A stretch of DNA of 64,000 nucleotides, from positions 4,384,001 to 4,448,000 of the forward strand of contig OZ253564.1 of the NCBI GenBank assembly GCA_965262915.1. Direction: 5' to 3'. Source of the DNA: Candidatus Spongiisociaceae bacterium. GTDB lineage: Bacteria > Actinomycetota > Acidimicrobiia > Spongiisociales > Spongiisociaceae. Position numbers and translations under genes: made by a program. The notes beneath the pieces were generated by a model that ran no database searches, was not told where the DNA came from, and saw nothing but the letters and a program-made list of their open reading frames with translations. How positions within the stretch are numbered: position 1 is the stretch's first letter; each line of letters opens with the position of its first letter. Positions 4,235-55,862 of the stretch are shown here, in pieces.

Positions 4235-4249
4235 AAATCCACTCATACT

Positions 4250-4440
4250 TAGAAGGTTCCTGGGCTGGGACGGGTCTGACCCAACTGAAATCTGGCTTTG
4301 TGCCTTTTCATCGATCTGTCGGCCTGTTCCCAGCTTGGGGGTGTAACCCCCTGACCCGGGGCGGATGTGACCTTATAGGAGCTTTGATCTTCCACCACCG
4401 TGAGTGGTCTGTCCACCGCCTTCCGGGTCCGAGGATTAGG
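4250..4440 (+). ncRNA. Putative IS110 bridge RNA (A1)
   Basis: ACTGAAATC (4284-4292) and TCATCG (4308-4313) match the target; ATAGGAGC (4375-4382) and TGAGTGG (4401-4407) match the element ends; RNA boundaries approximate. Confidence 0.75.
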
Positions 4441-4473
4441 AAGTGATTCTATCCAGCAGAGGAGGAAGGTGTC

Positions 4474-5703
4474 ATGGGAGAAGATGGTCGGGTTGTGTTC
4501 GGTGGGGTTGATACCCATCGTGATACCCATGTGGCGGCGGTGGTTGATGGCGCCGGTCGGGTCCTGGGAACGGCACCGTTCGGAGCTGATCGAGTCGGCT
4601 ATGAGCAACTGGAAGACTGGTTGCGGTTACAGGGTCGCGTTAGCCGGGTAGGAGTGGAGGGCACCGGCAGCTACGGCGCCGGCCTCGCCCGCTATCTGAT
4701 GGCGGCGGGCATCGAGGTGGTAGAAGTGAACCGGCCGAACCGGCAGCTACGCCGCCAGCGGGGCGGCAAGACCGACAGTGTCGACGCCGAGGCGGCAGCT
4801 CGGGCAGCGGCCTCGGGGCAAGCTACCGCAGTTCCCAAATCTGGTGACGGACCGGTTGAGTGCATACGGATGCTGTTGGTGGCCCGCCGCTCGGCTACCA
4901 AGGCCCGCACCCAGGCCGCTAACCAGATACATTCTGTGACCGTTACTGCACCTGAGCCGCTAAAACGCCAGCTCAGAGGTCTCAAGCTCAAGGCTCGGGT
5001 TCGGGTCTGTGCCCGCTGGCGTCCCGGCCAAGCACAGACCACTGCGGCGTACGCGAAGATGGCTCTACGCTACCTGGCCCGCCGATACCAATCCCTCGAC
5101 GCAGAGATCCGCGAACTCGACGTCGAGATCCGTCGCCTCTGCGCCGAGGCTAACCCGGCTCCCTTAGCCGCCACCGGTGTGGGCCCTGACAGCGCTGCTG
5201 CGCTGCTAGTCGCTGCCGGCGACAACCCCGGACGGATGAAATCGGAACGGTCCTTCGCTGCGCTATGCGGCGCCAGCCCCGTCCAGGCATCATCGGGACA
5301 GACCATCCGGCATCGTCTCAACCGGGGCGGCAACCGCCAAGCCAACAACGCACTCTGGCGGATCGCTACCACCCGGATACGCCACGACGCAGCCACCAAC
5401 CAATACGTGGCACGGCGCCAGGGGGAAGGAAAGAACCGAAAAGAGATCATCCGCTGCCTCAAGCGGCACATCGCCCGAGAGGTCTACCGACTGCTGACCA
5501 ACCCGCCACCAACCCCGAACTGCGCCCGGCTCCGCCGCCGACGTCAACACGCCAACATCACCGTCACCCAGGCCGCCCAACAGCTCGGAACCCACCCCAG
5601 CCGCATCTCCGCACTCGAACGCGGCCGAGACCACAACCACCAACTCGCCAGCCGATACCAGACCTGGCTCCTAACCCACCAACCGGCCCCATCACCGACT
5701 TGA
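4474..5703 (+). CDS. IS110 DEDD recombinase with C-terminal XRE-like HTH
   Basis: GVDTH, GVEGTGSYG, KTDSVDA, ASSG, RGGNRQAN motifs. Confidence 0.92.
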   Translation: MGEDGRVVFGGVDTHRDTHVAAVVDGAGRVLGTAPFGADRVGYEQLEDWLRLQGRVSRVGVEGTGSYGAGLARYLMAAGIEVVEVNRPNRQLRRQRGGKTDSVDAEAAARAAASGQATAVPKSGDGPVECIRMLLVARRSATKARTQAANQIHSVTVTAPEPLKRQLRGLKLKARVRVCARWRPGQAQTTAAYAKMALRYLARRYQSLDAEIRELDVEIRRLCAEANPAPLAATGVGPDSAAALLVAAGDNPGRMKSERSFAALCGASPVQASSGQTIRHRLNRGGNRQANNALWRIATTRIRHDAATNQYVARRQGEGKNRKEIIRCLKRHIAREVYRLLTNPPPTPNCARLRRRRQHANITVTQAAQQLGTHPSRISALERGRDHNHQLASRYQTWLLTHQPAPSPT

Positions 5704-5899
5704 CAACCATAGGAGCATCGAAGAGCCAGTATACCGGCGCCTCTGCGGTTCTTACGCCGTCTGGTAGCGGTTCGAGGGTGTCCCGGCTGAAACCTTGTGG
5801 CTCGAAGCTGGTGGATCAGGGGCGGCGTAGCAGCGCGCATCCGCAGAGCCAGGTTGTGTGGGGGACTCTTTGATCGGTTGATGTCGCTGAGCGGAGGCC

Positions 5900-19799: not shown

Positions 19800-20861
19800 G
19801 ACAAAACACAACGGTTTGGGTGCGTATCTGTGTATGAACTCGGCCATGGGTGTGGTCTCAGCGACCGAAGCTCCCTGTGTCGGGTTTTGGTCCCGCGACC
19901 GGTGTGCCTGGTGATAATGCGACTCGATCCACCGCCGCCAGTCGTTGATCTGTGCCACCCCTGTCCGGGTGTGCTGGTCAAAGTGATCCTTTGTTTTCAG
20001 CACCACGCAAGAGTCGGGTGTTTCGAGTTCTACCAGTACCCAACGTATCCCGTTCGAGTCGATATCCGCGAGCAGGAAGTCAGCGACATACTTATCGCCG
20101 AAGTGGACCTTCGGGCGGCAGTACCGTGACGGTCCTCGCAGCAGTGAGGCAAATAGTTGGGGACGTTCCTCCAATAGTTCCTGGATCGGTTTCTCACAAG
20201 TCGCTTCGTCAATGACTCGTCTTAGCTCTTCAATGTCCGCGTCGGTCACGTCGTCGGTTACCGCGTAGGGCTCCAACGCGGCCAGCTTCTCCTTGGAGAT
20301 CGTCTTTGTGCGTGCGCGTTTCGCGGCCCGGTTCTTGGCGATCTGACGCGCTTGGGTGCTGTCCTCTGAGTTGTCGCCGTGCCCGGCGATCATTGTCAGT
20401 TGGTCGGGCCAAGCGCCGGCACCTCGGCCGCCGGTGAAATACACCCGTCCGTCATCTCCGATCGACGAGACCTCATCGAACCGCCTGGCAGACGGGTTTC
20501 GTGACACCACGTCACCCTTCGCCAACCGGAGCTGCTCCAACGACTGCAGGCGTTGTCTCAAGTACAAACACCGGATCCATGCTTCGGCTTCCTCATAGCT
20601 GTCAACCGCGGCTGGTATCGCGACAGACATCGTCGCGGCCAGCTCCGCCATGAACTCCTGCTGCGCATCGGTGCTCTTGCGCGGAGCGACCCCGAAATGG
20701 CTGTCCACAGCCGAACGCACCCGGGCTGCAGCCACCAGTTGTGGCAGGCTCTCGGGCAACTCCACACCTACAGACGACGCGAACGCCCGAGAGTCTTCGT
20801 CACAGCGGGCAATCGTGCGGCGAATAGCCGCTACAGCACCTTCCCAGCTTGTACGCGCCAA
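19782..20861 (-). pseudogene. DUF4263/Shedu-like nuclease, C-terminally truncated
   Basis: EKPIQELLE..ADFL..LVELETP..QINDW; 3' end replaced by mobile-element sequence. Confidence 0.7.
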
Positions 20862-25307: not shown

Positions 25308-25344
25308 CTTAGCGGGTGACTGGGACGTGGTTGTTCGTGTTTGT

Positions 25345-27420: not shown

Positions 27421-28853
27421 GGCTCATCGGATTTCAGTGGGGAGTGACCGATGGGAGTAGGTCCCAGTTGGGTTTCCCCGCGTAGAGAAGGGCGCGGATT
27501 CGGTAGTTCGCGAAGTTGCGGAACCCGAACGCTGCTCGTTTGATCCGTTTGATGAGGTTGTTGAGGGCTTCGGTGGGTCCGTTGGTTACCTTCGAGATGT
27601 GCCAGTTGGTGATCTGGGGGGTCCAGCGGGCGATGGTACGACCCAGCTTGTTGATCTCGGGTGGGCAGGATTCGTGTTGGAGGTCGTCTGCGAGCTGGAG
27701 GGTGTATCGGAGAGCAAGGACCGGACTCTCGATCCCGTAGATGCCTCGTACCGTCTCTTTCGCGTGCCAGGCTGTGCGCACTTCCCCGTAGGGGTCACCA
27801 GCATCGAGGAGACCACGCAGCCGTATTTGACCCCGGTCGCTGATCCTCTCATGCGCAGCGGTTAGGAGCCGCCGTATCCGATACAGCGGGTCATCCTTGC
27901 GGCCTCGATGCCCGAGGGTTTCGTTTTGGACTCTTCGTCGTACCTCGTCGAGACGCTGGTTGGCGAGGCGGATGACGTGGAACGGGTCCGCTACCTGCAG
28001 CGCGTGCGGCAGCACCCTGTCATACGCCTTCCGATACGAACCGGACATGTCCAACACCGCCCAGCGGATAGCCTCACACCATTCGGTGGGTTGTGACCGG
28101 AACCAGGCTGCGGCGCTTTCTGCTGTTCTACCAGGGACTATGTCGATCAGCTGGTGGCCGCCAACGTCGACGACAGAGGTGCACCAGACTTTGGTACGCC
28201 AACGGCCCCGACGCCAGAACAACGTCTCGTCCACTCCCACAGCTTCGACGGTCCCGACCCGATCGGTGTCTGCTTCCAGCAGCGCTTCGCCCCAGCGGCC
28301 AACCTCTTTGTTCACCGTATGCCAATCACAACCAAGTTCTGCGGCGACCTCGTCGACCGAACGGCCCCGCCCACCCACCTGGATGGTCACCCACCGGGCC
28401 GCTCGGGATGTCAACAACGCCCGTTGGGGACCAATCTTGGGGTCTTGTTCGATGAACGATCTGAGCGCACAGTCGGGGTTCGGACATGTCCAGCGCCGTT
28501 TCCGCCACCGCAGCCGCACAGGCCGGCCGAACGCCGGTAAATCCACCAACACAACCGTCCGATAGCCCTTCGACCACACCGACCCGCCACAGGACTCACA
28601 CAACGGCCGGGGCTTGCGGGACCGGATCACCACCTCCAACGGTGCCTCCTCGCCCGGGTCGTTGATCCCTACCAGATCAACCTCACCTAGGCCTACCAAC
28701 TTCTCGCACATGCGCGTAGGATCAGCTTCCACAGGGGTCCTCCTGCCTCGGATGTCATTACCAACACCCGATTATGGAGGACCCCTCCTCACTTCTGGTG
28801 GATTCCAACTCCCCCTGGCAGATCCCCTACTCCCCACTCATTTCCGAAGAGCC
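27421..28853 (-). mobile_element. ISL3-family IS (copy 2, intact)
   Basis: IRs GGCTC..; perfect TSD ACTATCGT at 27413-27420 and 28854-28861. Confidence 0.95.
27434..28732 (-). CDS. ISL3 transposase
   Basis: Zn finger, GVDE, DM, DPFH, TNGPTEALN, GFRN. Confidence 0.95.
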   Translation of the reverse strand: MEADPTRMCEKLVGLGEVDLVGINDPGEEAPLEVVIRSRKPRPLCESCGGSVWSKGYRTVVLVDLPAFGRPVRLRWRKRRWTCPNPDCALRSFIEQDPKIGPQRALLTSRAARWVTIQVGGRGRSVDEVAAELGCDWHTVNKEVGRWGEALLEADTDRVGTVEAVGVDETLFWRRGRWRTKVWCTSVVDVGGHQLIDIVPGRTAESAAAWFRSQPTEWCEAIRWAVLDMSGSYRKAYDRVLPHALQVADPFHVIRLANQRLDEVRRRVQNETLGHRGRKDDPLYRIRRLLTAAHERISDRGQIRLRGLLDAGDPYGEVRTAWHAKETVRGIYGIESPVLALRYTLQLADDLQHESCPPEINKLGRTIARWTPQITNWHISKVTNGPTEALNNLIKRIKRAAFGFRNFANYRIRALLYAGKPNWDLLPSVTPH

Positions 28854-29182
28854 ACTATCGTGCAACTAGTAGTGTGCACGGCGAGCTGGCAGCATAACCC
28901 CATCCCGGCCTTGGGACCGTGCACGCTGCGAACCGCGCACTTGCCAGAGCAAGCACGTGGGGGGAGCAGAGCTACAAGGTATCCCCCGTGTACGTGAGGG
29001 CCCCGCCCATCTTTGGCGACCTGGTTCAGCCCTCATCGCGTCGGTAAGGACTGCTCGCCCTCTACCGGCGCATGCCGCACAACCCGAGGCCTCGCGTACG
29101 TCCGACAATGGGGATTGGCGGCCGGTATGGCGAAACGCCAGTCTACGCCCCGTCTACGACGGCACCGCCGGCGGTGTGTCTG

Positions 29183-33744: not shown

Positions 33745-33830
33745 TTAGCAGACGGCCCATCACAACACCTCCTACCCATCCCGACTGGTATTTCCAGACC
33801 TAGGTGTTGCGTTGACCCTCTGAGGCCACA
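33745..33830 (-). mobile_element. IS30-like left-end relic
   Basis: TGTGGCCTCAGAGGGTCAACGCAACAC; homologous to 43828-43910. Confidence 0.55.
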
Positions 33831-33852
33831 GTCCAAATATTCCGTTAACCCC
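33831..33852. repeat. Outer half of a Tn3-like IR
   Basis: Reverse complement GGGGTTAACGGAATATTTGGAC is 21/22 identical to 6332-6353. Confidence 0.7.
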
Positions 33853-35024: not shown

Positions 35025-36499
35025 CGAGGCCTCTCCCTGGATCGGCGATGTTGGCTATTCACCGATTCCAGCGGGGCCTCACCCCCATTCCAAGGATTTC
35101 ACCCCACCCAACCCACGATGCTCCTATGTTTTGCAAATCGGTTGTTGGGTGAGCCAGTGTTGGTATCGGGTAGCGAGGTGGTGGTTGTGGTGGAGGCCTC
35201 GTTCGAGTTGTGATAGGACGGTGGGCTGCGTGTCGAGGTGGTGGGCGGCGCGGGTGAGGGTGATTCGGGCTTGGGTTCGGCGGTGGCGTAGGTCGGTTCC
35301 GTGGGGTGTTGGGGGCGGGTCGGTGAGGAGGTGGTATATCTCGCGGGCGATGTGGCGTTTCAGGCAGCGGATTATTTCGGTGTGGGTTTTTCCTTCCGCT
35401 TCGCGTCTGGTGACATATTCTTTGGTGGCAGCGTCGGTGCGCATTCGGTTGGTAGCGCATCGGCCATAGCGCGTTGTTTGCTTGGCGGTTGCCGCCTCGG
35501 TTGAGACGGTGCCGCACTATCGGTCCCGATGATGCGGCTACGGGGCTGAGGGCGCAGAGGGCCGCGAAGGCTGCTTCTGAGTTCATACGTCGTGGGTTGT
35601 CACCAGCAGCGACCAGGAGAGCAGCGGCGGTGTCGGGTCCTACTCCGTAGGCGGCCAGCAACGCAGGGTTGGCCCGTGCGCAGAGACCGCGGATCTGTTT
35701 GTCGACCTGTGTGATCTCGGTGTCTAGATTCTGGTATCGGCGGGCTAGAAGCCGCAGTGCCCGCTTGGCGTATGCCGCAGTGGTCTGCGCTGTGGCTGGA
35801 CGGAAGCGGGCACAGACCTTGACCTGTGTCCGGGTCGGGAGATCCCGGAGTTGGTGTTTGACCTGCTCAGGAGCGGTTACTACCAGAGCGTGCAGCTGGT
35901 TGGCGGCCTGGGTGCGGGCTTTGACCGCGGAGCGGCGAACTACCCGCAGCATCCTGGTGGCTTCTACCGGTCCGTCGCCCGTCTTGGGTAGGGCGGTCGC
36001 TTCACCGTTGAGAGCAGCCCGGGCTGCTGCCTCAGCGTCGGTGGTGTCATCCTTGCCCCGCCGCCGGCGAAGCTGGCGGTTGGGACGGTTCACCTCCACC
36101 ACACCGATACCCGCCTCGGTGAGATGACGTGTGAGCCCAGCGCCGTAGCTGCCCGTTCCCCCCACCCCGACCCGGCAGATCCGACCCCACGACTCCATCG
36201 GGGCGACCAGTTGGGCATAACCGGAGGTATCAGCCCCGAACTGGGCGGATCCCAACAGGCGACCCGCGCCATCCACCACCGCCCCAACGTGGAAATCCCG
36301 ATGTGTGTCCACCCCGCCAACCACACCTACCCCATCGGCCCTAACTTGCTCCGCCATGTGCTCGCCTTTCGTCGGCTGCCTAGAATCCAACCCCCGGAGC
36401 CGGGCAGAGCGGCGGACAGAACACTCACGGTGCAAAAGTCGAAGGCTCCTAATGGGGGTCCACCACTTCTGCCGGTGTTTCTGGGAGGGTGTGGTGGTT

Positions 36500-36660
36500 G
36501 AGCTGGCTGGCCGGTGAGTACTCCAGGCTCCTGGAACGTTGATTCCTGCTGATAGATCGTGCCCCGGCCGGTGAGTGAGGGCCGCTTGTAGCGCTCATGG
36601 GGTGGCGTGCCACAGAGCACTGATCCATTAGGTCGCCGCCAGGCGTTCTCCACAGCTCAG
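36500..36660 (+). ncRNA. Putative bridge RNA of IS110-B
   Basis: AGGCTCCT and TGATAG match the target; TGGGGTG and CCATTAG match the donor; boundaries approximate. Confidence 0.78.
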
Positions 36661-36694
36661 CAGAGAGTGGACCCGCGCAAGGAAGGGGCGAAGG

Positions 36695-37915
36695 ATGATC
36701 TTTGTGGGTAACGACTGGGCTGAGGGACATCACGATGTGTATCTCATGGACGAGGAGGGAGCCCGCCTGGGGTTCTCCCGTCTACCGGAGGGCCTGGCGG
36801 GTGTGGCCCGCTTGCACGAGATGGTCGCCAAACACGCATCGGATGCGGCCGAGGTGGTGGTAGGGATCGAGACCGACCGTGGTCTGTGGGTCGGTGCTCT
36901 GGTCGGGGCGGGTTATCAGGTGTATGCGATCAACCCGATGGCAGTTTCCCGTTACCGGGACCGTCACCGCCAGGGTGGAGCCAAATCAGACCGAGGAGAC
37001 GCCAAGGTGTTAGCCGATCTGGTACGCACCGACCGTCACAACCACCGTCCGGTAGCCGGGGACAGCCCCGAATCGGAAGGTATCAAGATCATGGCCCGTG
37101 CCCATCAGAACCTGATCTGGGCGCGGACCCGCCACACCAACCAGATGCGCAACGCGCTGCGCGAGTACTACCCTGCAGCCCTGGAAACGTTCGATGACCT
37201 GGCCCATCGCGACGCCCTAGCCATACTCGGTCGGGCACCCACCCCCACCCGGGGCGCCCGCCTGACACTTCCCCAGATCAGAGCAGCGGTACAGAGAGGC
37301 GGACGGAAACGCAACCTCGACAAGGTTGCCCGCCGCATACAGAAAGGCCTCAGAGGTGCCCACCTCACCGCACCCGGGCCGGTCGCGGACGCCTTCGGGA
37401 CGATCGTTGCTTCGCTGGTCAAGATCATCGCGGAAACCAACCGCCAGATCGCCGACCTCGAAGAAACCCTCGAGACCCATTTTGAAGAACACCCGGACGC
37501 CGTCATCTACCACTCCCAGCCAGGACTCGGTACCGTGCTCGGCGCCCGGGCGCTCGGTGAGTTCGGGGATGACCCCGACCGCTACACCAGCGCCAAGTCT
37601 CGCAGAAACTACGCCGGCACGTCGCCCATCACCATCGCATCAGGCCGCAAACACGCCGTCGTTGCCCGCCAGGTCCGCAACCGGCGACTCCCCAACGCTT
37701 TGGACCAATGGGCATTCTGTTCCCTCAACAACAGTCCAGGAGCGCGAGCCTTCTACGACCAACGAAAAGCAGCCGGCGACCTCCACCACCAAGCACTACG
37801 AGCCCTCGCCAACCGGCTCGTCGGCATCCTCCACGGCTGCCTCAAACACCGAACCCCCTACGACGAACACACCGCCTGGGCACACCGAACCATGCTCGAC
37901 CGAGCCGCAGCTTGA
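36695..37915 (+). CDS. IS110 recombinase (different clade, intact ORF)
   Basis: GNDWA, GIET, KSDRGDA, ASG. Confidence 0.92.
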   Translation: MIFVGNDWAEGHHDVYLMDEEGARLGFSRLPEGLAGVARLHEMVAKHASDAAEVVVGIETDRGLWVGALVGAGYQVYAINPMAVSRYRDRHRQGGAKSDRGDAKVLADLVRTDRHNHRPVAGDSPESEGIKIMARAHQNLIWARTRHTNQMRNALREYYPAALETFDDLAHRDALAILGRAPTPTRGARLTLPQIRAAVQRGGRKRNLDKVARRIQKGLRGAHLTAPGPVADAFGTIVASLVKIIAETNRQIADLEETLETHFEEHPDAVIYHSQPGLGTVLGARALGEFGDDPDRYTSAKSRRNYAGTSPITIASGRKHAVVARQVRNRRLPNALDQWAFCSLNNSPGARAFYDQRKAAGDLHHQALRALANRLVGILHGCLKHRTPYDEHTAWAHRTMLDRAAA

Positions 37916-38109
37916 CATTTACGCTCCTGGGGTGTCTATCAAGTCACCCCGCTCCCCGGTTCAGGGTTCCCACCCGGGGCCAGGTCGACAGATCGTGGGA
38001 AAGGCACCAAAGGCCAGTTTTCGCGTGAGTCAGACCCGGCCCCAACCGGAAACCCTATAAGTATGAGTGTTTCCGCGCAGGGCCAACTACTCATCTAGGC
38101 TAGGCTGTC

Positions 38110-41193: not shown

Positions 41194-42942
41194 GTGGCTA
41201 AAGGATCGGAAGAACCACGACGCCGAGGTCCCCATCCGTTGCTGGCCGCGGCTCTTTCCGTGGTCTGGCCTGGATTGGGGCACTTCGGACATGATACCCG
41301 CCGAGGGCTGATGCTAGCCAGCGCAACGCTTGTCACCGTCGTGATCGGACTCGTCTACACCTTAACGCGGGGCGTGACGACTCTGCTTGCTTGGAGCGTG
41401 ACTCGGTTATCGCTCCAGGTTCTCATCGCCGGCGTTCTATGTGTTCTGGTGTTTCGGGTCGTGGTTACTGTTGACGCATACAGAACTGTGGCACGTGGGT
41501 GCCGACCGCAACATTGGAGCGCGCACCGCCGATTCGGAACCTTGGCCATGCTCGTGTTGCTGGCCGTGATCGTCGCCGTGCCACATGTCATCGCTATCCG
41601 ATTCGCTGTAGCTCAGCTTGGCCTGTTGTCCGGCGTCTTCGATGCAACAGACACGCAGACCGCGATTGCGACTCCAGTTCCCATCACCATCGTTCCGGCG
41701 ACTCTGCCTCTGGCTGCTACGACCGGACTGCCCGAATCGTCTGTTCCGGTTGCGCAGACGACCTCTGTGCCCTCGACTATGGCTCCTTCCACGACGGTGC
41801 CGCCACCTGCTCGCGACGGAGCTGATCGACTGGCCAGCGCCGTCGCGATGCCCGAATCGTCTGTTCCGGTTGCGCAGACGACCTCTGTGCCCTCGACTAT
41901 GGCTCCTTCCACGACGGTGCCGTCACCTGCTCGCGACGGAGCTGATCGACTGGCCAGCGCCGTCGCGATGCCCGAATCGTCTGTTCCGGTTGCGCAGACG
42001 ACCTCTGTGCCCTCGACTATGGCTCCTTCCACGACGGTGCCGTCACCTGCTCGCGACGGAGCTGATCGACTCACGATTGCTTTGCTTGGAGGCGACGGCG
42101 GATTCGGCCGCACAGGCGTACGAACCGATACGATCATCGTACTGTCGATCGATACGGTCACCGGCGACGCCGCCGCGTTCAACGTGCCGCGTAACTGGAG
42201 CCGTCTCACGTTCCCCGATGGGACACCCGCATCCCAACGATGGCCCGACGGTTACCCGGATCTCGCCAACGCGGTGTACGGCGCGGGGTTGAGATTCCCT
42301 GGGGTGTTCCCGGGTGTCGAGGATACAGCCGGCCATGCGATCAAGTCAGCCCTCGCTCAACTGACCGGGCTCCCCATCCAATACTATGTGCTCGTCGACA
42401 TGGTGGGATTTGTTGACGCTATCGACTTGTTCGGCGGTATCGACATACATGTCACCGAAGCGATCAACGACCGGATCAAGCCCATCGAACCCAACGGCCC
42501 ACACATCGACATTGTGGTTAAGCCCGGCGACTACCACTTCGACGGTCTGACCGCCCTCGGTTACGTGCGTTCCCGAACCACGAGCTCGGACTACCACCGC
42601 ATGACCCGCCAACGATGCGTGGTGGAAGCATTGATCGACCAGATCACGCTCGCAGAGATGCTGGCAAACTTCCTGGCGCTCACCGACATCATCTCCGACC
42701 ACATCAAAACCGACATACCACTCGACCGGCTAAACGAACTCATCATCCTCGGAGATAAGCTTGACACTTCCAGAATTGTCACCGTCAACTTCATCCCCCC
42801 CGAGTTCCCGCGCGGTCGTGCACCGATCACCCGAGTACGCGAGGCTGTCACCCAAGCACTTCAAGGCGCCACGAACCAGACCAACAGTTCTCTCGTCGAC
42901 AGCTGCCACGGGCCACAGGGACTACCCCACCGCCTTCACTAG
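41194..42942 (+). CDS. LCP (LytR-CpsA-Psr) family protein
   Basis: TM helices; LLGGD..RTDTI, PRN, YVRSR..SDYHRM.RQ. Confidence 0.9.
   Translation: MAKGSEEPRRRGPHPLLAAALSVVWPGLGHFGHDTRRGLMLASATLVTVVIGLVYTLTRGVTTLLAWSVTRLSLQVLIAGVLCVLVFRVVVTVDAYRTVARGCRPQHWSAHRRFGTLAMLVLLAVIVAVPHVIAIRFAVAQLGLLSGVFDATDTQTAIATPVPITIVPATLPLAATTGLPESSVPVAQTTSVPSTMAPSTTVPPPARDGADRLASAVAMPESSVPVAQTTSVPSTMAPSTTVPSPARDGADRLASAVAMPESSVPVAQTTSVPSTMAPSTTVPSPARDGADRLTIALLGGDGGFGRTGVRTDTIIVLSIDTVTGDAAAFNVPRNWSRLTFPDGTPASQRWPDGYPDLANAVYGAGLRFPGVFPGVEDTAGHAIKSALAQLTGLPIQYYVLVDMVGFVDAIDLFGGIDIHVTEAINDRIKPIEPNGPHIDIVVKPGDYHFDGLTALGYVRSRTTSSDYHRMTRQRCVVEALIDQITLAEMLANFLALTDIISDHIKTDIPLDRLNELIILGDKLDTSRIVTVNFIPPEFPRGRAPITRVREAVTQALQGATNQTNSSLVDSCHGPQGLPHRLH
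41729..42071 (+). repeat. Three 120-bp (40-aa) tandem repeats in the LCP linker
   Basis: PESSVPVAQTTSVPSTMAPSTTVP.PARDGADRL x3. Confidence 0.95.
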
Positions 42943-43024
42943 AACAATAATAGCCACCATCACCAAGTCACGTCCAAGCATATCCCCCTCAGAAGTCGCC
43001 AGCACCCGACCACGGCGGGGGGCA

Positions 43025-43112
43025 TCACACCCCAGGCCGGAGACAGGCCGACAGATCATAGAAAAGGCACAACGGCCAGTTTGTCAAAGGGTCAGACCTG
43101 TCCCCGGCCCAA
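43025..43112 (-). ncRNA. Orphan IS110-A-type target-binding hairpin
   Basis: Scaffold aligns with A1-A3; different guides; no recombinase nearby. Confidence 0.6.
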
Positions 43113-43199
43113 GACCGCTACCGGTACGGTTCAGTCCGCACTTCGGGCAAGCCGATACGGGGTTGGCTGAGCATCGGCGCCAAATCGGGGTTACCGTCG

Positions 43200-43387
43200 A
43201 ACATGGACAAAGGACAACGGTTTCGTTCAGCCACTCGCGCCCCACTGCCATACCGCCGGTTGATCACCTCAGCAAAGTCGTGAGATGTGAGAGTGAAGCA
43301 CCGCCCCAAGTCGTCGGTATCAACATGGTTCGGGAACCTGGCCAAGACGTCGCGGTCGGCTACTTTGAGAAACCCTCCACGCCCCAA
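43200..43387 (-). pseudogene. Tn3-family transposase N-terminal (DUF4158-like) relic
   Basis: FL...R..L.RFP......DL.R.FTL...D...I.RR. Confidence 0.55.
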
Positions 43388-43429
43388 GAATCCCCCCTAG
43401 CGAGGTAGAGATACCCCACCGACTACCAC

Positions 43430-43610
43430 CAGGCCGGCTTCGGTGGCCAGTTCCTCCAATGACCCGAACACCGGGCCGGCAGCCTCCATATACCCGATAC
43501 CCGGGCCGTCGGCCTTCAGCAGCAGTACCCACCAACCCGCCGATCACCGCAGCTGTAACCGCGACGACCGCGAGCATCCTCGCCTTGTAGAGCTGCCTAC
43601 TCACTTGCAT
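43430..43610 (-). pseudogene. Remnant paralog of 25966-26631
   Basis: MQVSRQLYKARMLAVVA versus MTASRQLYRARMLIVVA. Confidence 0.6.
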
Positions 43611-44048
43611 GCCTCTCGTCTCCCCTCGGCGTCTACAAGTGGGTCCCCCTGGTCTGGTCACTAGTAGAGAGCGTCCACGCCGTTCTGGACGTCGGCGGCA
43701 GAGAACGACCTCCAGAAGTTCAGCGCCTAGGCGATGTTCATGACCCACACAGGGAGCGTCGATCGCTGAGACCACACCCATGGCCGAGTCCATACACCGA
43801 TACGCACCCAAACCGTTGTGTTTTATCTGTGGCCTCAGAGGGTCAACGCAACACCCTGGGCTGGAAATACCGGCTGGGATGAGTTGGAGGTGTCGTGGTG
43901 GGCCGCCAGACGGACGATCCGGTGTGAAGCAGTACGAGATGGACGCACCTGTCTTTGGCAGAATGGACTTGAAGTCGGGAACGTGTCTAGCTGACCGGTT
44001 GCGATGCCTTGCTCGGAGTGGTGTCACGTCCTGAGATTGTGGGGGATG

Positions 44049-45218
44049 TCAGTTGATCTTGAGTGAGGGTACGTAGTGGCCGTCAGCTCTGTGGTATACG
44101 GTCACTCGTTCAAGTACCTGTGGGTTGATGGCTTGGCCGACGGTGACCGCGGCCGAGAGGGGTATGGCTGCGGTGAGGTGGATGTTGCGGGTCTGTTTGT
44201 GGTTGTGTTCGATCGCTGCGAAGACGTCGTAGCAGGTTGAGCGGAAGTGGTCGAGTGTGGCGCGGGATTCGATGGCGTTGGCGTGGGGCGGGCTGTCACC
44301 GGCTAAGCGGATGGTGTAGGTGGGGAGGTCCTGGAGGTCGGCAGGGAGTTCGGCTCTGTGGATGGATCCGGACACGTTGATAACGACATTGACGGCGGTG
44401 GCAGGTGAGGGTGCTGGTGTCTCGACGACGAAGTCGCTCTCGTCGGCGGTGTCGGGCCAGTCCCAGGACTGGGTACGACGCGAGCGCTGGTAGATGTCGG
44501 TGCTGAAACTGTCGTCGAGTTTGGAGCCGAGGTAGACGAGCAGGGGTAGGCGGGCGAACGCAAAGACGCTGACGTGGCCGATGTGGTCGCGGGCGATGCC
44601 GTCTCGGAGACGTCCGTCGACGAGTTCGTCGATGGCTAGGCACGCGTCGGCGAAGTATGTGTCGCTGCTGGCCTGTTCGCTGGGGCGGCCGCGTAGATCG
44701 CATTCGATGGTGGCGTGGTCAACGGCGAGCGCGAAGTCGGGGAAGCGGTCGCCGGTTCTGAGGCAGGCGCTGGTGGCTTCGAGTCGGGTGCACTGCACGG
44801 TGTTGCCGTAGATATCGCCGATGACGCGGAGGACGACGGTTCGTTCGCGTTTGACCATCGCGGTGGCCTTGCGGATTCGGCGTTCGTGGTGACGTTTCGC
44901 TGTTTTGAGGGTGTCCACATCGAAGGCGGCGAGGTTGGCGGTGGCGTCGATCTGGGGATGGTGGTATGGGCATAGGAGCATGAGGTTGTCGGGGTCGTCG
45001 GGATCCTCGCCGGGGAGTAGATATTCATGGCGAGGCGACCTCGACTTGGTAGGCGAGGCCGGTTCGTGTCGGCGGGTGCGTCTCTTGCCCTTGATGTGGG
45101 CCACCTCGCCGACGTTGGGCGTGGCGGATCCGATGTCGCCGTCGAGGAGGTAGGTGTTGCACACTACGCACCGGCCGCCTGAGCGAACCCAGACTTTTCG
45201 TCGGTCCGAGTCCTTCAC
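44049..45218 (-). CDS. cap5: HNH-SAVED effector (Cap5-like)
   Basis: GGRCVVC, AHI, NLMLLCPYHH..ID; SAVED motifs FAFARLPLLVYLG, YQR, W.WP; GTG start overlaps the cap2 stop. Confidence 0.88.
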   Translation of the reverse strand: MKDSDRRKVWVRSGGRCVVCNTYLLDGDIGSATPNVGEVAHIKGKRRTRRHEPASPTKSRSPRHEYLLPGEDPDDPDNLMLLCPYHHPQIDATANLAAFDVDTLKTAKRHHERRIRKATAMVKRERTVVLRVIGDIYGNTVQCTRLEATSACLRTGDRFPDFALAVDHATIECDLRGRPSEQASSDTYFADACLAIDELVDGRLRDGIARDHIGHVSVFAFARLPLLVYLGSKLDDSFSTDIYQRSRRTQSWDWPDTADESDFVVETPAPSPATAVNVVINVSGSIHRAELPADLQDLPTYTIRLAGDSPPHANAIESRATLDHFRSTCYDVFAAIEHNHKQTRNIHLTAAIPLSAAVTVGQAINPQVLERVTVYHRADGHYVPSLKIN

Positions 45219-46945
45219 TGGTCGTACTCGAGGTAGCGATGGCCGGGGAGGTTGATGCCGGAGTGCGGCATGTTGATGAGGTGCATGCCAACAGTGTGGG
45301 CGCCGATGTGGCCCGCGATGAGGTTCAGCATTGTCGCGGCGAGGCCTGCAGCGTCGGCGGCCGAGCCGTGGAACGTCGGTGTCGAGCATCCCGGCATGGG
45401 CAGGACCAGGTCTCCAGGGTTCGGGTCGGTCCAGAACCGGTGGAACGGTTCGAGGCCACCTTGTGCGAGTACGGCCTGGCTCAGTTCGGTTTGGACGTGC
45501 ATGGGCGAGACCGCTCCGGAGCCGACGACGACTATGCCGAGGGTTGCTGATTGTGCGTCGGTTGCGACTGACGCTACGACCGGACCAGTAGTTGGAGTGT
45601 CGGCCATCGCAGCCTGCAGGAATGCGCCAACGGACTCGGAGACCGTGGCGTCGATGAGGAGGTCGCAGTCGGGGACAGCGCCGGCGCCGACTGCGGATCC
45701 GGGCTTGGCGTCGATTTGTGCGAGGTCGGCTATGGCGTCAAGGCGGGCCTTCAGTTGGGTGGCCTTGGCGAAGCCGACGTCGTCCTCGGTGAAGTTCTGG
45801 CGGACAAGGAGGTCGCCTTGGACGCCGCCGTGGTCTCTGAGCGTGAGGTGTGCGACACCGGCTCGGATCAGGTATTCGCCGAGCCAGGAGCCGAGTCCGC
45901 CGCAGCCCCACAGCTCGACGGCGCGGCCGCGTAGCGCAGTGACGGGCCTGGTTTCGTCGCGTCGGGTTGCGTGTTCGGGTCGTTGATCCGACATGTTGCA
46001 CCATTCGATGGGAGTGTCGTGTCCGATTGCTAGGGATATCTCCGCTGGGGAGCGCGCAGCTGGGTTCCAGGAGTCAGATCGGATCGTGATGCGTCCGACG
46101 CACAGGTGCCAACCCGGCTCGGGAAGCGATGGCTGGCGGGCGACGGCCAACACGACGTAGAGGAGGCCGCTGGGGCCGTCGGCTGCGTGGGTCCGTTCGA
46201 GCGCGCCGGCGATCGCGTGCCAGGGCGGCCCGCCTGCGGCCTTAAGCGCTGCTCGGAGTTGGCCGACGGTGTTTCCGGGCCCGTAGGGCATGCGGTCGGG
46301 GACCGAGATGGTGAGCACACGAAGCGCTGGGCGCACAGCGTTCTTGGCAGGCGGGTCGATGTCGATGCGGCGGGCCGTGCGGGGCGTGGCGGATCCGAGC
46401 GATAGGGGCTTTCCTGGGATGCCGGGGAATCGGCGTACGACTGTGGTCGGCGCTCCACTGGTCACGGGGTTTCGGCCGCCGATGGGGTGGAACAGCGCGG
46501 TCGCGGCGTCGAAGCGGTCGTTGGCGGCGTTGTCGAGGAACTTCCAGATCTGTTCGAGGACATCGCGCATCCCACCAGATGGATGCCACTCGCGGTCTTC
46601 GTCGAGATAGATGCAGAGCTCTTTGCCGTAGAGGACGTGGACGACGTCGACGAAGCGGTTGTGCTGGACGTACACCGTGGGCGTTTTCGCCGGGAAGCGA
46701 GGCCCGACGACGATGGTTACGTCCTCTTGGTCGGCCAGTAGTTCCGAAGCCGATGGCGCGTCGATCGTGCGTGTCGAAAGGGAGACGTCCACTGCCAGAT
46801 AGGCGTGCTCTGCAGTGGGGGATGTTATGCATTGGGGTTGGCCGACAGCGACTATGTCATGCGGCTTCGCGGCGGCGAGGTCGCGCAGTTCAGCGAGTGC
46901 GGCCTTCTGGCCGGGGGACCACGCCGGTTTGCGGGAGCGCCTCAT
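45215..46945 (-). CDS. cap2: CBASS E2-E1 fusion (Cap2-like)
   Basis: E2 FP...P..HV...LC.Y; ThiF GCGGLGS, LVRQNF, K; PGCSTPTFHGS. Confidence 0.88.
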   Translation of the reverse strand: MRRSRKPAWSPGQKAALAELRDLAAAKPHDIVAVGQPQCITSPTAEHAYLAVDVSLSTRTIDAPSASELLADQEDVTIVVGPRFPAKTPTVYVQHNRFVDVVHVLYGKELCIYLDEDREWHPSGGMRDVLEQIWKFLDNAANDRFDAATALFHPIGGRNPVTSGAPTTVVRRFPGIPGKPLSLGSATPRTARRIDIDPPAKNAVRPALRVLTISVPDRMPYGPGNTVGQLRAALKAAGGPPWHAIAGALERTHAADGPSGLLYVVLAVARQPSLPEPGWHLCVGRITIRSDSWNPAARSPAEISLAIGHDTPIEWCNMSDQRPEHATRRDETRPVTALRGRAVELWGCGGLGSWLGEYLIRAGVAHLTLRDHGGVQGDLLVRQNFTEDDVGFAKATQLKARLDAIADLAQIDAKPGSAVGAGAVPDCDLLIDATVSESVGAFLQAAMADTPTTGPVVASVATDAQSATLGIVVVGSGAVSPMHVQTELSQAVLAQGGLEPFHRFWTDPNPGDLVLPMPGCSTPTFHGSAADAAGLAATMLNLIAGHIGAHTVGMHLINMPHSGINLPGHRYLEYDQ

Positions 46946-52688: not shown

Positions 52689-52891
52689 GCTCCCTTCTGC
52701 CCAGGTGAAGATCCGCCGGGTCGGCGTCGTGCGGACGCTGATATCGAGGATGACAAGTGACCAGTCTTGGCGGGTGGCGCGGTCGGCTAGGGCGAGGATG
52801 TCGGAGGAGTTACGGCCGAAGACGGGAGACGACCGACACGTCAGCCCGGCCTTCGTTGAGGCCCTGGAGGATGCGCCTTATTGGGCTCATC

Positions 52892-54367
52892 GATGCTCCT
52901 ATGGTTGTCAAATCGATGATGGGGCGGTTTGGTGGGTGTGCAGCCAGTTCTGGTATCGGGTGGCGAGGTGGTGGTTGTGGTCTCGGCCGTGTTCGAGTGC
53001 TGAGATGCGATTGGGGTGGGTTCCGACGGCTTGGGCGGTCTGGGTGAGGGTGATGCCGCGTTGTTGGCGTCGGGTGCGTAGGCGGGCGCAGTTCGGGGTT
53101 GGGTGCGGGTTGGTGAGGAGCCGGTAGATTTCTCGGGCGATGTGCCGCTTGAGGCAGCGGATGATCTCCTTTTTCTTCTTGCCCTCGGCCTTGCGTCGTG
53201 CCACGTAGGCTTTGGTGGCGGCGTCGGTGCGCATCCGGGTGGTAGCGATCCGCCATAGCGCGTTGTTGGCTTGGCGGTTGCCGCCCCGGTTGAGACGATG
53301 CCGAAGGGTTCGTCCTGATGACGCCTGGACGGGGCTGGCGCCGCACAGCGCCGCGAAAGACCGTTCCGATTTCATTCGCTTGGGGTTGTCGCCGGCGGCG
53401 ACCAACAACGCGGCGGCTGTGTCAGGACCGACACCTTCTGTGGCCAGCAGGGCCGGGTTGGCCTGGGCGCAGAGACGCCGGATCTCGGCTTCGAGTTGGG
53501 CGATCTCTACGTCGAGGGCCTGATACCGGCGGGCCAAATGCTGTAGGGCACGCTTCGCATACGCGGTGGTGGTGTGGTCTGTGCCGGGTCGGAACCGGGC
53601 ACAGGTTTTGACCCGTGCTTTGAGATTCATGCCCTTTAGCTGGTGTTTTAGCGGCTCGGGAGCTGTTACGACCAGCGCATGTATCTGGTTAGCGGCCTGG
53701 GTGCGGGCCTTGACCGCGGAGCGGCGCACCACCCACAGCATCCGTATGCACTCGACCGGGCCCACACCGGACTTGGGAACCGCGGTTGCTTCGCCCGAGG
53801 CAGCTGCCCGAGCTGCCGCCTCGGCGTCGACGCTGTCGGTCTTGCCGCCCTTCTGGCGGCGTAGTTGGCGGTTGGGGCGGTTGACCTCCACCACCTCGAT
53901 GTTCATCTCGGTCAGGTAACGGGCCAGGCCGGCGCCGTAACTACCCGTTCCTTCCACCCCAACCCGAACCAACTGTCCCCGCGACTCGAACCAGGTGACC
54001 ATTCGCCGATAACCGGATTCCTCCACCGCGAAAGACTCCGATCCCAGTACCCGCCCGACGCCATCCACCACCGCTGCTACGTGGACGTCCCGATGGGTGT
54101 CAACCCCACCGTAGATAATCTGGTCTGCTTCTCCCATGATGCTCTTCTCCTCTAGGGGATAGAATCATTTCCGATCCCCGGACCCGTGTGCGGTTGGACA
54201 GGCCACTCACGGTGGAGAAGTTGAAGGCTCCTATTAGGTCACATCCGCCCCGGGTCAGGGGGTTACGCCCCAGGCCGGGAACGGGCCGACAGATCGATGA
54301 AAAGGCACAAGGCCAGATTTCAGTTGGGTCAGACCCGCCCTAGCCCAGGAACCCTCTAATTATGAGT
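52892..54367 (-). mobile_element. IS110 element A2
   Basis: Same ends and same insertion point as A1. Confidence 0.9.
52908..54137 (-). CDS. IS110 recombinase with C-terminal XRE-like HTH
   Basis: Diverged paralog of 4474-5703. Confidence 0.92.
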   Translation of the reverse strand: MGEADQIIYGGVDTHRDVHVAAVVDGVGRVLGSESFAVEESGYRRMVTWFESRGQLVRVGVEGTGSYGAGLARYLTEMNIEVVEVNRPNRQLRRQKGGKTDSVDAEAAARAAASGEATAVPKSGVGPVECIRMLWVVRRSAVKARTQAANQIHALVVTAPEPLKHQLKGMNLKARVKTCARFRPGTDHTTTAYAKRALQHLARRYQALDVEIAQLEAEIRRLCAQANPALLATEGVGPDTAAALLVAAGDNPKRMKSERSFAALCGASPVQASSGRTLRHRLNRGGNRQANNALWRIATTRMRTDAATKAYVARRKAEGKKKKEIIRCLKRHIAREIYRLLTNPHPTPNCARLRTRRQQRGITLTQTAQAVGTHPNRISALEHGRDHNHHLATRYQNWLHTHQTAPSSI

Positions 54368-55862
54368 GGATTTCAGTGGGGAGTGACCGATGGGAGTAGG
54401 TCCCAGTTGGGTTTCCCCGCGTAGAGAAGGGCGCGGATTCGGTAGTTCGCGAAGTTGGGTAACCCGAACGCTGCTCGTTTGATCCGTTTGATGAGGTTGT
54501 TGAGGGCTTCGGTGGGTCCGTTGGTTACCTTCGAGATGTGCCAGTTGGTGATCTGGGGGGTCCAGCGGGCGATGGTACGACCCAGCTTGTTGATCTCGGG
54601 TGGGCAGGATTCGTGTTGGAGGTCGTCTGCGAGCTGGAGGGTGTATCGGAGAGCAAGGACCGGACTCTCGATCCCGTAGATGCCTCGTACCGTCTCTTTC
54701 GCGTGCCAGGCTGTGCGCACTTCCCCGTGGGGGTCACCAGCGTCGAGGAGACCACGCAGCCGTATTTGACCGCGGTCGCTGATCCTCTCATGCGCAGCGG
54801 TTAGGAGCCGCCGTATCCGATACAGCGGGTCATCCTTGCGGCCTCTGTGTCCCAGGGTTTCGTTTTGGACTCTTCGTCGTACCTCGTCGAGACGCTGGTT
54901 GGCGAGGCGGATGACGTGGAACGGGTCCGCTACCTGCAGCGCGTGCGGTAACACCCTGTCATACGCCTTCCGATACGAACCGGACATGTCCAACACCGCC
55001 CAGCGGATAGCCTCACACCATTCGGTGGGTTGTGACCGGAACCAGGCTGCGGCGCTTTCTGCTGTTCTACCAGGGACTATGTCGAACCGGCTGGTGGCCG
55101 CCAACGTCGACGACAGAGGTGCACCAGACTTTGGTACGCCAACGGCCCCGACGCCAGAACAACGTCTCGTCCACTCCCACAGCTTCGACGGTCCCGACCC
55201 GATCGGTGTCTGCTTCCAGCAGCGCTTCGCCCCAGCGGCCAACCTCTTTGTTCACCGTATGCCAATCACAACCAAGTTCTGCGGCGACCTCGTCGACCGA
55301 ACGGCCCCGCCCACCCACCTGGATGGTCACCCACCGGGCCGCTCGGGATGTCAACAACGCCCGTTGGGGACCAATCTTGGGGTCTTGTTCGATGAACGAT
55401 CTGAGCGCACAGTCGGTGTTCGGACATGTCCAGCGCCGTTTCCGCCACCGCAGCCGCACAGGCCGGCCGAACGCCGGTAAATCCACCAACACCACACTCC
55501 GATAGCCCTTCGACCACACCGACCCGCCACAGGCCACACACAACGGCCGGGGCTTGCGGGACCGGATCACCACCTCCAACGGTGCCTCCTCGCCCGGGTC
55601 GTTGATCCCTACCAGATCAACCTCACCTAGGCCTACCAACTTCTCGCACATGCGCGCAGGGATCAGCTTCCACAGGGGTCCTCCTGCCTCGGATGTCATT
55701 ACCAACACCCGATTATGGAGGACCCCTCCTCACTTCTGGTGGATTCCAACTCCCCCTGGCAGATCCCCTACTCCCCACTCATTTCCGAAGAGCCGGTTAT
55801 TGATACTTGGTTTGAGGGCGTTCCTGGTGGTTGCTGCTGTAGGGATGACCGGATCCATCCAT

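What the first reader, a model, noticed from the sequence alone, without database searches (positions are those of the whole stretch)
43025..43112. Orphan bridge-RNA target loop whose guide matches the IS110 right end itself
Seen: the scaffold GGTCTGACCC-[guide]-TGGCC..TGTGCCTTTT-[guide]-ATCTGTCGGCC is present with no recombinase and no clear donor loop. Guides TTGACAAAC (43079-43087) and CTATG (43057-43061) predict the target TTGACAAACATAG, 12/13 identical to the A1/A2 right end TTGACAACCATAG, which contains the -35 box of the circle-junction promoter. Inference: either a relic of an IS110 that inserts into sibling IS110 ends, or a trans-acting decoy guide that redirects the recombinase onto its own donor or promoter.
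Basis: partly seen in the sequence, partly recalled or inferred. Interest (0 to 1): 0.75.

Follow-up and report, generated by a model that had tools for sequence, protein, structure and literature searches.

The report
Relic guide loop of sibling-targeting IS110
This is a broken-off piece of a jumping gene's guide RNA whose lineage is programmed to insert into the tail end of related jumping genes; intact copies doing this occur in two other genomes, and here only a stranded fragment is left.

Summary
Observation confirmed. On the minus strand, 43114-43030 holds a complete IS110-type bridge-RNA target-binding loop. It has no donor loop and no recombinase remnant within about 1-2 kb on either side (window 42001-45000 searched).

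The same genome has 27 copies of this loop scaffold in 7 guide classes; the orphan's guide pair is unique. I calibrated the guide-to-target rule on occupied and empty sites of sibling classes.

In this genome the predicted target has 0 exact matches. All 23 one-mismatch matches are IS110 right ends.

The decisive evidence comes from two other Acidimicrobiia genomes. There, elements with the same guides (9 of 10 left-guide and 5 of 5 right-guide letters identical) and their own recombinase sit in sibling right ends, between TTGACAAxC and ATAGGAGCATC. There are three insertions: two with both junctions and one with the right junction only.

The orphan is therefore most likely a relic of a sibling-end-targeting IS110. 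It is cut at its 5' side, where the -10 region is lost. At its 3' side it is followed by 61 nt of another IS110 lineage's left end.

I found no evidence that it acts in trans. None of the 23 candidate right ends in this genome is occupied, no promoter was found, and no RNA data exist. The fragment is ordinary. The lineage's guide-programmed insertion into sibling ends looks like a new variant of a known kind.

The parts
43030..43114 (-). Whole extent of homology to IS110-family left ends: the orphan target-binding loop with its outer stem
   Evidence: blastn gives 79% to A1, 89% to X_G045 and 91% to X_G002, and nothing beyond these limits. Fold z = -5.78. All 32 invariant columns of the 13-sequence loop alignment are kept.
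43089..43098 (-). Conserved scaffold GGTCTGACCC (5' side of the inner stem)
43079..43088 (-). Left target guide TTTGACAAAC
   Evidence: It occupies the position of the left guide in 7 sibling classes. In those classes its last 9 nt equal the left flank of the element. It is 9/10 identical to the guides of X_G002 and X_G045.
43062..43078 (-). Central hairpin of the loop (TGGCCGT TGTGCCTTTT)
   Evidence: The GGC/GCC pairs are invariant in 13 of 13 sequences.
43057..43061 (-). Right target guide CTATG (reverse complement CATAG)
   Evidence: In all 7 calibrated classes the reverse complement of this 5-mer equals the 5 nt that follow ...GGAGCAT at the right junction.
43046..43056 (-). Conserved scaffold ATCTGTCGGCC (3' side of the inner stem)
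42978..43038 (-). 61 nt that are 82-85% identical to the first bases of the left end of a different IS110 lineage ('Z'). Z copies lie at genome positions 699524, 718395, 2339463 and 4009826 and in other genera. This segment replaces the donor loop.
   Evidence: The ORF downstream of the Z copy at 699584 begins with what I recognise (recalled, no domain search run) as an IS110-type DEDD N-terminus.
43121..43133 (+). CCGGTACGGTTCA: 13 of 13 match to the terminal bases of another insertion sequence ('IS-Y', itself the target of IS110 class c962). It abuts the 5'-truncated left end of the orphan.
   Evidence: The -10 region (CATACT in X_G002) is lost here.
5700..5712 (+). Right-end 13-mer TTGACAACCATAG of resident element A1, the predicted one-mismatch target, unoccupied
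52899..52911 (-). Right-end 13-mer TTGACAACCATAG of resident element A2, unoccupied
4273..4324 (+). Target loop of A1 (guides AACTGAAATC / CATCG), upstream of recombinase 4474-5703. Used for calibration.
54284..54335 (-). Target loop of A2 (same guides), upstream of recombinase 52908-54137
37983..38036 (-). Target loop of a class-C element (ACGCGAAAAC / CCACG). A nested IS110 of another lineage (36695-37915, +) separates it from its donor loop and recombinase.

Best explanation
The feature is a dead fragment: the target-binding loop of the bridge RNA gene of an IS110-family element ('X'). I infer, by analogy with IS621, that in an intact X the bridge RNA is transcribed from the left end and bound by the DEDD recombinase. 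Its target loop then pairs with TTGACAAxC (bottom strand) and CATAG (top strand), and the circular element is inserted at the shared C.

That target is the right end of sibling IS110 elements, 11 bp from their terminus. It covers their TTGACA hexamer and the first 4 nt of the sequence that their donor loop recognises (ATAGGAGC). Insertion therefore makes head-to-tail sibling-X arrays: ...TTGACAAxC | X | ATAGGAGCATC.

In this window only the loop survives. The first roughly 12 nt of the left end, including the -10 region, are replaced by the tip of another IS. Everything 3' of the loop's outer stem (donor loop, recombinase, right end) is gone, and 61 nt of another IS110 lineage's left end follow.

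Shown: the loop's anatomy, the guide-to-target rule in siblings, and the insertions of X relatives in sibling ends. Inferred: the RNA-guided mechanism itself, the order of the truncating events, and that the fragment is inert.
For: (1) The scaffold and fold are intact, but homology is confined to 85 nt, with no recombinase or donor loop.

(2) Calibration in this genome. The left guide's last 9 nt equal the left flank. The reverse complement of the right guide equals the 5 nt after ...GGAGCAT in 7 of 7 classes examined. Empty sites show that the two guide matches share one C, giving a 13-nt target, in class C (3 empties), c4997 (2 empties) and c2009 (3 empties).

(3) The predicted 13-mer has 0 exact and 23 one-mismatch matches in the genome. 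All 23 are IS110 right ends: 20 read TTGACAACCATAG and 3 read TTGACAATCATAG. Chance P = 0.0003-0.004.

(4) Relatives. In G002/G046, X (ATTGACAAAC/CTATG) shows both junctions inside a sibling right end of exactly the type present 20 times here (TTGACAAC-C|ATAG). The same genome has 3 unoccupied right ends with the exact target TTGACAAACATAGGAGC. In G045 there is an intact sibling-X tandem with a 9/9 left match, plus a second X copy with the right junction GGAGCATC|ATAGGAGCGTC.

(5) Both X lineages lack the core C in their own right ends (TTGACAAA-A-ATAG and TTGCACAA-T-ATAG), so they are not their own targets.

(6) No sigma-70-like site lies upstream of the orphan. The X_G002 -10 hexamer position is occupied by foreign sequence.

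(7) None of the 23 candidate right ends in this genome is occupied. There are 0 left-junction and 0 true right-junction signatures.
Against: The orphan's own left flank is not a sibling right end. So nothing at this locus shows that this particular copy ever sat in a sibling, and its history (insertion site, deletions) is reconstructed, not seen.

The loop is undamaged. All invariant scaffold positions, the stems and the guides are kept, which is also what selection for function would give. At 85 nt and 91% identity to X_G002 this cannot be told from a recent origin.

Contigs of a second, independent sample also tile the locus, so it is stably inherited.

Separate target and donor loops support IS621 recombination in vitro (PMC11208158, passage read), so a lone loop is not inert in principle.

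The register of guide and target is not uniform in the family: 13 nt in three or four classes, 14 nt in classes A and c962.

The covariation control 'slide +1' scores nearly as high as the true structure (0.193 against 0.203).
Confidence: 0.85

Rival explanations
1. The lone loop is retained and transcribed, by read-through from the upstream minus-strand ORFs. It then works in trans with resident sibling recombinases and their donor loops. It would either send siblings into each other's right ends or occupy those ends as a decoy, damping the junction promoter.
For: Scaffold, stems and guides are intact. Family recombinases are 66-82% identical and share the scaffold. Separate target and donor loops work for IS621 in vitro (PMC11208158). 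The one-mismatch target type present 20 times here was really used in G002. The locus is also present in an independent sample.
Against: No promoter-like site lies upstream and the native -10 region is lost. None of the 23 candidate right ends is occupied. It is a single copy, truncated on both sides by other IS debris. It was found in 2 of 29 family genomes, and in the other genome it is part of a full element.
Confidence: 0.07
2. The match to the right end is not targeting. It would be a chance or homology-derived resemblance, and the true target of these guides lies elsewhere.
For: There is no exact match to the predicted target in this genome. The orphan's own flank is not a right end. The 14-nt register used by classes A and c962 would give no match at 1 mismatch or fewer.
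Against: Three insertions of elements with these guides sit at exactly the predicted position in sibling right ends in two other genomes. The exact target is present as a right end 3 times in G046. Chance P is at most 0.004.
Confidence: 0.03
3. It is part of a non-autonomous, separately mobile RNA module, like the unlinked ssr9 copies of ISPpu9, which the family's recombinase moves on its own.
For: Unlinked small-RNA modules flanked by end-like boxes exist for ISPpu9 (PMC12288879, passages read).
Against: No right-end motif (TAGGAGC) or left-end start (ACTCATA) flanks the fragment. It is a single copy. Both borders are junctions with other IS fragments.
Confidence: 0.03

Closest known systems
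IS621 / IS110-group bridge RNA target-binding loop (Durrant et al. 2024, PMC11208160; Hiraizumi et al. 2024, PMC11208158)
   Same: It is an internal loop between two stems. A 5' guide is identical to the left target (top strand) and a 3' guide is complementary to the right target. It is encoded in the left end upstream of a DEDD recombinase in full-length relatives. A donor loop of the same build follows, and a TTGACA hexamer in the right end is placed 17 nt from a -10-like hexamer across the joint.
   Different: Here the loop stands alone. In this family the two guide matches share one C (13-nt targets), or none (14-nt targets of classes A and c962), rather than a CT dinucleotide. The base before the C differs between donor (T) and many targets (A). 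The recombinases carry a C-terminal helix-turn-helix.
[quoted passage not shown]
   Same: A site-specific DEDD-type IS that uses the end of another mobile element as its insertion site. Class A of this genome does the same with the right inverted repeat of an ISL3-type IS: 15 sites occupied, 16 empty and 1 variant among 32.
   Different: X targets the end of members of its own family, at the hexamer that would serve as -35 of their junction promoter and overlapping their donor recognition site.
[quoted passage not shown]
   Same: Head-to-tail IS110 arrays.
   Different: Those arrays are ascribed to donor-loop half-matches at element boundaries. Here the joint lies 11 bp inside the sibling's end and matches both guides of the target loop (9/9 or 8/9, plus 5/5 or 4/5), so it is canonical target-loop-guided insertion of a different lineage.
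Unlinked ('orphan') ssr9 copies of ISPpu9 in Pseudomonas putida (PMC12288879, passages read)
   Same: A small-RNA gene of an IS110-family element found away from any transposase gene.
   Different: The ssr9 copies keep end-like A'/B' boxes, occur three times, and ssr9-only circles were detected. The fragment here has no end boxes and is a single truncated piece.

Membership tests
IS110-family bridge RNA, target-binding loop | Conserved scaffold sequence shared with loops that lie upstream of IS110 recombinases | tested here: met
   27 scaffold copies in the genome. The orphan keeps all 32 invariant columns of a 13-sequence alignment.
IS110-family bridge RNA, target-binding loop | Stem / internal loop / stem fold supported by covariation | tested here: met
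   Orphan fold z = -5.78. Across 13 loops, 87.8% of cells are paired, 6 of 22 pairs change on both sides, and 0 of 500 shuffles reach the covariation score. The +1 slide control is nearly as high (0.193 against 0.203), so support is moderate.
IS110-family bridge RNA, target-binding loop | The guides match the two flanks of the element's insertion site | tested here: met
   Met for 7 sibling classes and for the orphan's guide class in relatives X_G002 and X_G045. It is not testable on the orphan copy itself, because its flanks are other IS debris.
IS110-family bridge RNA (complete) | A donor-binding loop follows the target loop | tested here: not met
   Homology ends at 43030, and a foreign 61-nt segment follows.
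IS110-family bridge RNA (complete) | Transcribed from a promoter at the left end or across the right-left joint | tested here: inconclusive
   No promoter-like site lies upstream and the -10 region is lost. No RNA run is available. Read-through was not assessed.
Autonomous IS110-family insertion sequence | DEDD recombinase gene (PF01548 + PF02371) next to the RNA gene | tested here: not met
   No hit in window 42001-45000, about 1 kb below and about 1.9 kb above the fragment. Neighbouring genes are LytR_cpsA_psr and SAVED-HNH.
Autonomous IS110-family insertion sequence | Element ends (ACTCATA... at the left, ...ATAGGAGCATC at the right) | tested here: not met
   Neither motif flanks the fragment.
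Rfam families | Match to any curated RNA family | tested here: not met
   0 matches at E <= 1 in 42900-43250. None at gathering score.

The most novel reading that the evidence does not exclude
The stranded target loop is kept because it is useful. Transcribed by read-through, it would load onto the resident sibling recombinases, which share its scaffold, and steer them to the TTGACA-bearing right ends of the roughly 23 resident IS110 copies. That would make it a natural, stand-alone anti-transposon guide RNA that blocks or scrambles the siblings' junction promoter, analogous in logic to a CRISPR spacer against a mobile element.
Probability: 0.05. Interest if true: 0.85.

Novelty: new variant of a known kind. 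Interest (0 to 1): 0.45.

Why it matters
The fragment itself is junk.

Following it uncovered a natural case in which a bridge RNA has been programmed against the conserved right end of its own family. The target is the hexamer that should act as -35 of the junction promoter, and it overlaps the donor recognition site. The result is guide-directed tandem IS110 arrays in two genomes.

This points to conflict or hitch-hiking between sibling RNA-guided transposons. The targeting lineage's own right ends lack the core C, which looks like built-in self-immunity.

It also gives natural data on guide rules that bear on engineering bridge recombinases:
- A mismatch next to the core was tolerated in a real insertion.
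- The register between left and right guide differs by one base between classes.
- The first core base differs between donor and target.

Finally, lone bridge-RNA loops need not be new regulatory RNAs. They can be dated debris of nested insertions.

Tried and rejected
- Donor-loop reading. I considered that the loop might be a donor-binding loop, since it matches the element's own end. I rejected this. The family's donor loop has a different scaffold (GTGACC-..ATAGGAGC..-GTGAGTG-GTCTGTCC) and reads ATAGGAGC and CACTC.
- 14-nt register. The predicted target then has no genomic match at 1 mismatch or fewer. The junctions of the X relatives fit the 13-nt register.
- Tandem arrays in this genome. 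Three apparent arrays (274608/275862, 4464287/4465629, 2805159/2806578) are not X-type. For the first two, the flanks printed show the ISL3 right-inverted-repeat remnant GATGAGCC directly after the first element's right end, which I read as an ISL3+A composite sitting next to or inside another IS110. The single right-junction-like hit (1369581) is a 14-bp tandem duplication, CATAGGAGCATCTT twice, and remains unexplained.
- Synteny. G001 (same genus) matches only to the right of window 43181, so no empty site could be recovered.
- Wider searches. The guide pattern was found in 2 of 29 family genomes, that is G000 and G002. It was found in 2 records of genome contigs, one being G002's contig and the other G045, and in 0 metagenome contigs. 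The nested-junction signature was found in 0 of 401 sampled genomes of the class; the sample did not include G002.
- RNA evidence. No RNA holder was listed.
- Laid contigs. These show only that the locus exists in the probable source sample (X1, records 1-2) and in one independent sample (X5, records 10-11). Parts without cover in X6 and X9 say nothing. One X5 contig leaves the orphan at 43109 and runs on into an intact left-end start; I did not follow this up.
- Recombinase relationships. X_G002 and X_G045 are 73.5% identical, no closer to each other than to other classes. So I cannot say whether the specificity arose once. No tree was built.
- Literature on target-loop-guided insertion into sibling IS110 ends. 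I ran the paper search and read passages. None describes it. Supplementary tables were not opened. Those of PMC11208160, PMC11187229 and 10.64898/2026.08.14.744561 may list such targets.

Full report
WHAT IS THERE

The finding lies on the minus strand. Reading 43114 down to 43030 gives an outer stem and GGTCTGACCC (43098-43089). Next come the 10-nt left guide TTTGACAAAC (43088-43079) and a small GGC/GCC hairpin. Then follow the 5-nt right guide CTATG (43061-43057), ATCTGTCGGCC (43056-43046) and the closing strand of the outer stem.

The 85 nt fold into stem / large internal loop with a central hairpin / stem at -44.2 kcal/mol, z = -5.78, with 0 of 200 shuffles folding as well. No Rfam family matches, even at E <= 1.

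THE FAMILY IN THIS GENOME

The window is part of a 5.06-Mb, 64% G+C single-contig genome. A fuzzy regex for the scaffold finds 27 copies in 7 guide classes:
- 17 copies of AACTGAAATC/CATCG (class A, including A1 and A2 of the window);
- 4 copies of ACGCGAAAAC/CCACG (class C);
- 2 copies of AACTGAAATT/TGGGG;
- four singletons.

The orphan pair TTTGACAAAC/CTATG is one of the singletons. Two more scaffold variants appear upstream of recombinases.

tblastn with the A1 protein (409 aa; PF01548 + PF02371 + a C-terminal HTH) finds about 31 recombinase loci. None lies near the orphan, and a lenient search of 42001-45000 with 12 family proteins gives only noise, best E = 0.016 over 12 aa. Nucleotide homology to any IS110 left end is confined to 43114-43030. 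The observation 'target loop without recombinase and without donor loop' is therefore correct.

CALIBRATING GUIDE AGAINST TARGET

In full elements the scaffold is followed by a second loop of the same build: GTGACC-(T/A)ATAGGAGC-...-GTGAGTG-GTCTGTCC. Its guides match the element's own right end (CATAGGAGCATC) and left end (CACTCATA). This is the donor loop.

Right guide. In 7 of 7 classes, the reverse complement of the 5-nt right guide equals the 5 nt that follow ...GGAGCAT at the right junction: CGATG, CGTGG, CCGGG, CATGA, CCCCA, CCTTG, CAACG. It always begins with C.

Left guide. Its last 9 nt equal the left flank directly before (C)ACTCATA.

Empty sites fix the register:
- class C inserts in GCGCGAAAAC|GTGG (3 empties);
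- c4997 inserts in CCTCGTAAC|ATGA (2 empties);
- c2009 inserts in GGTGAAATC|CTTG (3 empties).

In these classes the two guide matches share one C, giving 13-nt targets.

Class A differs. Its target is the right inverted repeat of an ISL3-type IS...ACTGAAATC-CGATGAGCC. Of 32 such repeats, 15 are occupied, 16 are empty and 1 is a single-C variant. Here, and in class c962, the two matches abut without overlap, giving 14 nt.

[quoted passage not shown] Here one C is shared, and the base before it is T in the donor (GCA-TC) but A in many targets.

DOES THE PREDICTED TARGET EXIST?

In this genome the 13-mer has no exact match and 23 one-mismatch matches. All 23 are IS110 right ends: 20 read TTGACAACCATAG, including A1 at 5700-5712 and A2 at 52899-52911, and 3 read TTGACAATCATAG. 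The 14-nt version has none at 1 mismatch or fewer.

A match of this quality anywhere in the A1 element, on either strand, has P between 0.0003 and 0.004 depending on the null model.

The hexamer TTGACA lies 17 nt from CATACT or CATAAT across the deduced right-left joint. This is the geometry of the junction promoter described for IS621. That is an inference; no circles were seen.

RELATIVES SETTLE THE INTERPRETATION

A DNA search of 41 related genomes found a 91% match to the loop in G002, of the same genus.

In G002 the loop (ATTGACAAAC/CTATG) belongs to an element X with a donor loop and a recombinase. Two nested IS break this element. Its left junction is ...GATTTGACAAC-C|ACTCATACTGG.... 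This lies directly after the C-terminus of a sibling recombinase, that is, inside the sibling's right end. Its right junction is X's own end ...ATAGGAGCGTC followed by ATAGGAGCATC, the sibling's last 11 nt, and then the sibling's flank.

The site used in G002, TTGACAACCATAG, is exactly the one-mismatch type present 20 times in the window's genome. G046 also has three unoccupied right ends with the exact target TTGACAAACATAGGAGC.

A collection scan found one further genome, G045, an Acidimicrobiia MAG. It holds an intact tandem: sibling recombinase, then TTTGACAAAC|ACTCATAATGG, then the loop CTTGACAAAC/TCTATG, a donor loop, a recombinase, and ...TTGACAAAAATAGGAGCATC|CTAGGAGCATC|flank. A second, 5'-truncated X copy there ends ...GGAGCATC|ATAGGAGCGTC|flank.

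That makes three insertions at the position the guides predict: two with both junctions and one with the right junction only.

These joints lie 11 bp inside the sibling's end and match both target guides. They are therefore not the donor-arm 'half-match' tandem duplications described in two 2026 preprints.

Both X lineages lack the core C in their own right ends (A in G045, T in G002), so they are not their own targets. That this is an adaptation is my inference from two cases.

The two X recombinases are only 73.5% identical, no closer to each other than to other classes.

Beyond these genomes, the guide pattern was found in 2 of 29 family genomes and 0 metagenome contigs. The nested-junction signature was found in 0 of 401 sampled genomes of the class.

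HOW THE ORPHAN WAS STRANDED

5' side. X homology fades after about 43114-43120, and 43133-43121 is a 13/13 match to the tip of another IS ('IS-Y'). The stretch where X_G002 has CACTCATACTGG, with its -10 hexamer, is not conserved.

3' side. Directly after the outer stem, 43038-42978 is 82-85% identical to the first 61 nt of the left end of another IS110 lineage ('Z'). That lineage occurs in four copies here and in other genera. The stop codon of a LytR_cpsA_psr gene on the other strand follows about 35 nt later.

The most economical story is this: X was hit by Z just downstream of its target loop, and deletions then removed the rest. The order of events, and the join to IS-Y, are unexplained. 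The orphan's own flank is not a sibling end, so this copy's original insertion site is unknown.

IS IT ACTIVE?

Against activity:
- no promoter-like site lies upstream;
- 0 of 23 candidate right ends is occupied, and there are no X-type junction signatures in the genome;
- it is a single, doubly truncated copy.

For activity:
- the loop is undamaged;
- the family's recombinases share its scaffold;
- separate target and donor loops support IS621 recombination in vitro (PMC11208158);
- the locus is tiled by contigs from an independent sample.

No RNA data exist (reported only as tried). I put the relic reading at 0.85 and a trans-acting role at about 0.05-0.07.

COMPARISON AND NOVELTY

In build and inferred mechanism this is an IS110-group bridge-RNA target loop. 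As a member of 'complete bridge RNA' or 'autonomous IS110' it fails the tests for donor loop, recombinase and ends.

Targeting the ends of other mobile elements is known for the sister IS1111 group (IS4321/IS5075 against Tn21-family repeats; title seen). Class A does the same here.

I found no description of a bridge RNA whose target loop is programmed against the right end of its own family (searches; passages 48, 49, 51, 53, 54, 57; supplements not seen). I therefore rate the lineage a new variant of a known kind and the fragment itself ordinary debris.

Noticed in passing
window 36436-38080 (minus-strand element); the same arrangement at genome 3638443-3641339 and upstream of 288883: A class-C IS110 is split inside its own bridge-RNA gene. 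A divergent IS110 (recombinase 36695-37915, +, about 44% identical to A1) sits right after GACTTGATAG, in the left donor guide. So a second lineage also appears to target a conserved sibling sequence (ATAGGAGC). The same upstream sequence precedes three recombinases. The Rfam hit Ms_AS-4 (37516-37597, -) lies antisense inside this nested transposase gene.
   Followed up: partly
window 2810-5724 and 52890-55797; genome-wide: IS110 class A sits in the right inverted repeat of an ISL3-type IS. Of 32 such repeats, 15 are occupied, 16 are empty and 1 is a single-C variant (at genome position 306079). The A1-bearing ISL3 keeps its 8-bp duplication AGTATACC. The uninterrupted copy at 27429-28858 has ACGATAGT.
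   Followed up: partly
calibration sites: The register between left and right guide differs by one base between classes of one family. Targets are 13 nt with a shared C in classes C, c4997 and c2009, and 14 nt without overlap in A and c962. The base before the shared C is T in the donor but A in many targets.
   Followed up: partly
genome 1369581-1369599 (minus strand; outside the window): A right-end relic is followed by a 14-bp tandem duplication, CATAGGAGCATCTT twice. It may be a donor-arm 'half-match' product.
   Followed up: no
window 17712-19529 and 23492-25309: A 1818-nt inverted repeat (94%) has Rfam Ms_IGR-7 hits at its outer ends (17715-17832 -, 25189-25306 +). It is probably another IS whose end encodes a small RNA.
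   Followed up: no
window 44049-45389 (-): An ORF with HNH and SAVED domains, the build of a CBASS-type effector, lies next to the IS debris. The neighbouring ORFs 43118-43387 and 43320-44027 have no Pfam match.
   Followed up: no
window 41729-42088 (+): Three 120-nt tandem repeats (99% and 89%) lie inside the LytR_cpsA_psr gene 41194-42942.
   Followed up: no
window 43181-43237 and 43744-43905: These are further short repeats with copies elsewhere (genome 1466812 and 1270157; window 19775-19883 and 33753-33831). Synteny with the congener G001 starts only at 43181. So the orphan lies at the edge of yet another repeated element.
   Followed up: no
run X5, loose end at window 43109: A contig of an independent sample matches the loop and then continues into an intact left-end start (reverse complement ...ATCACTCATACTGGTAGG...). 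This suggests a full-length relative in that sample.
   Followed up: no
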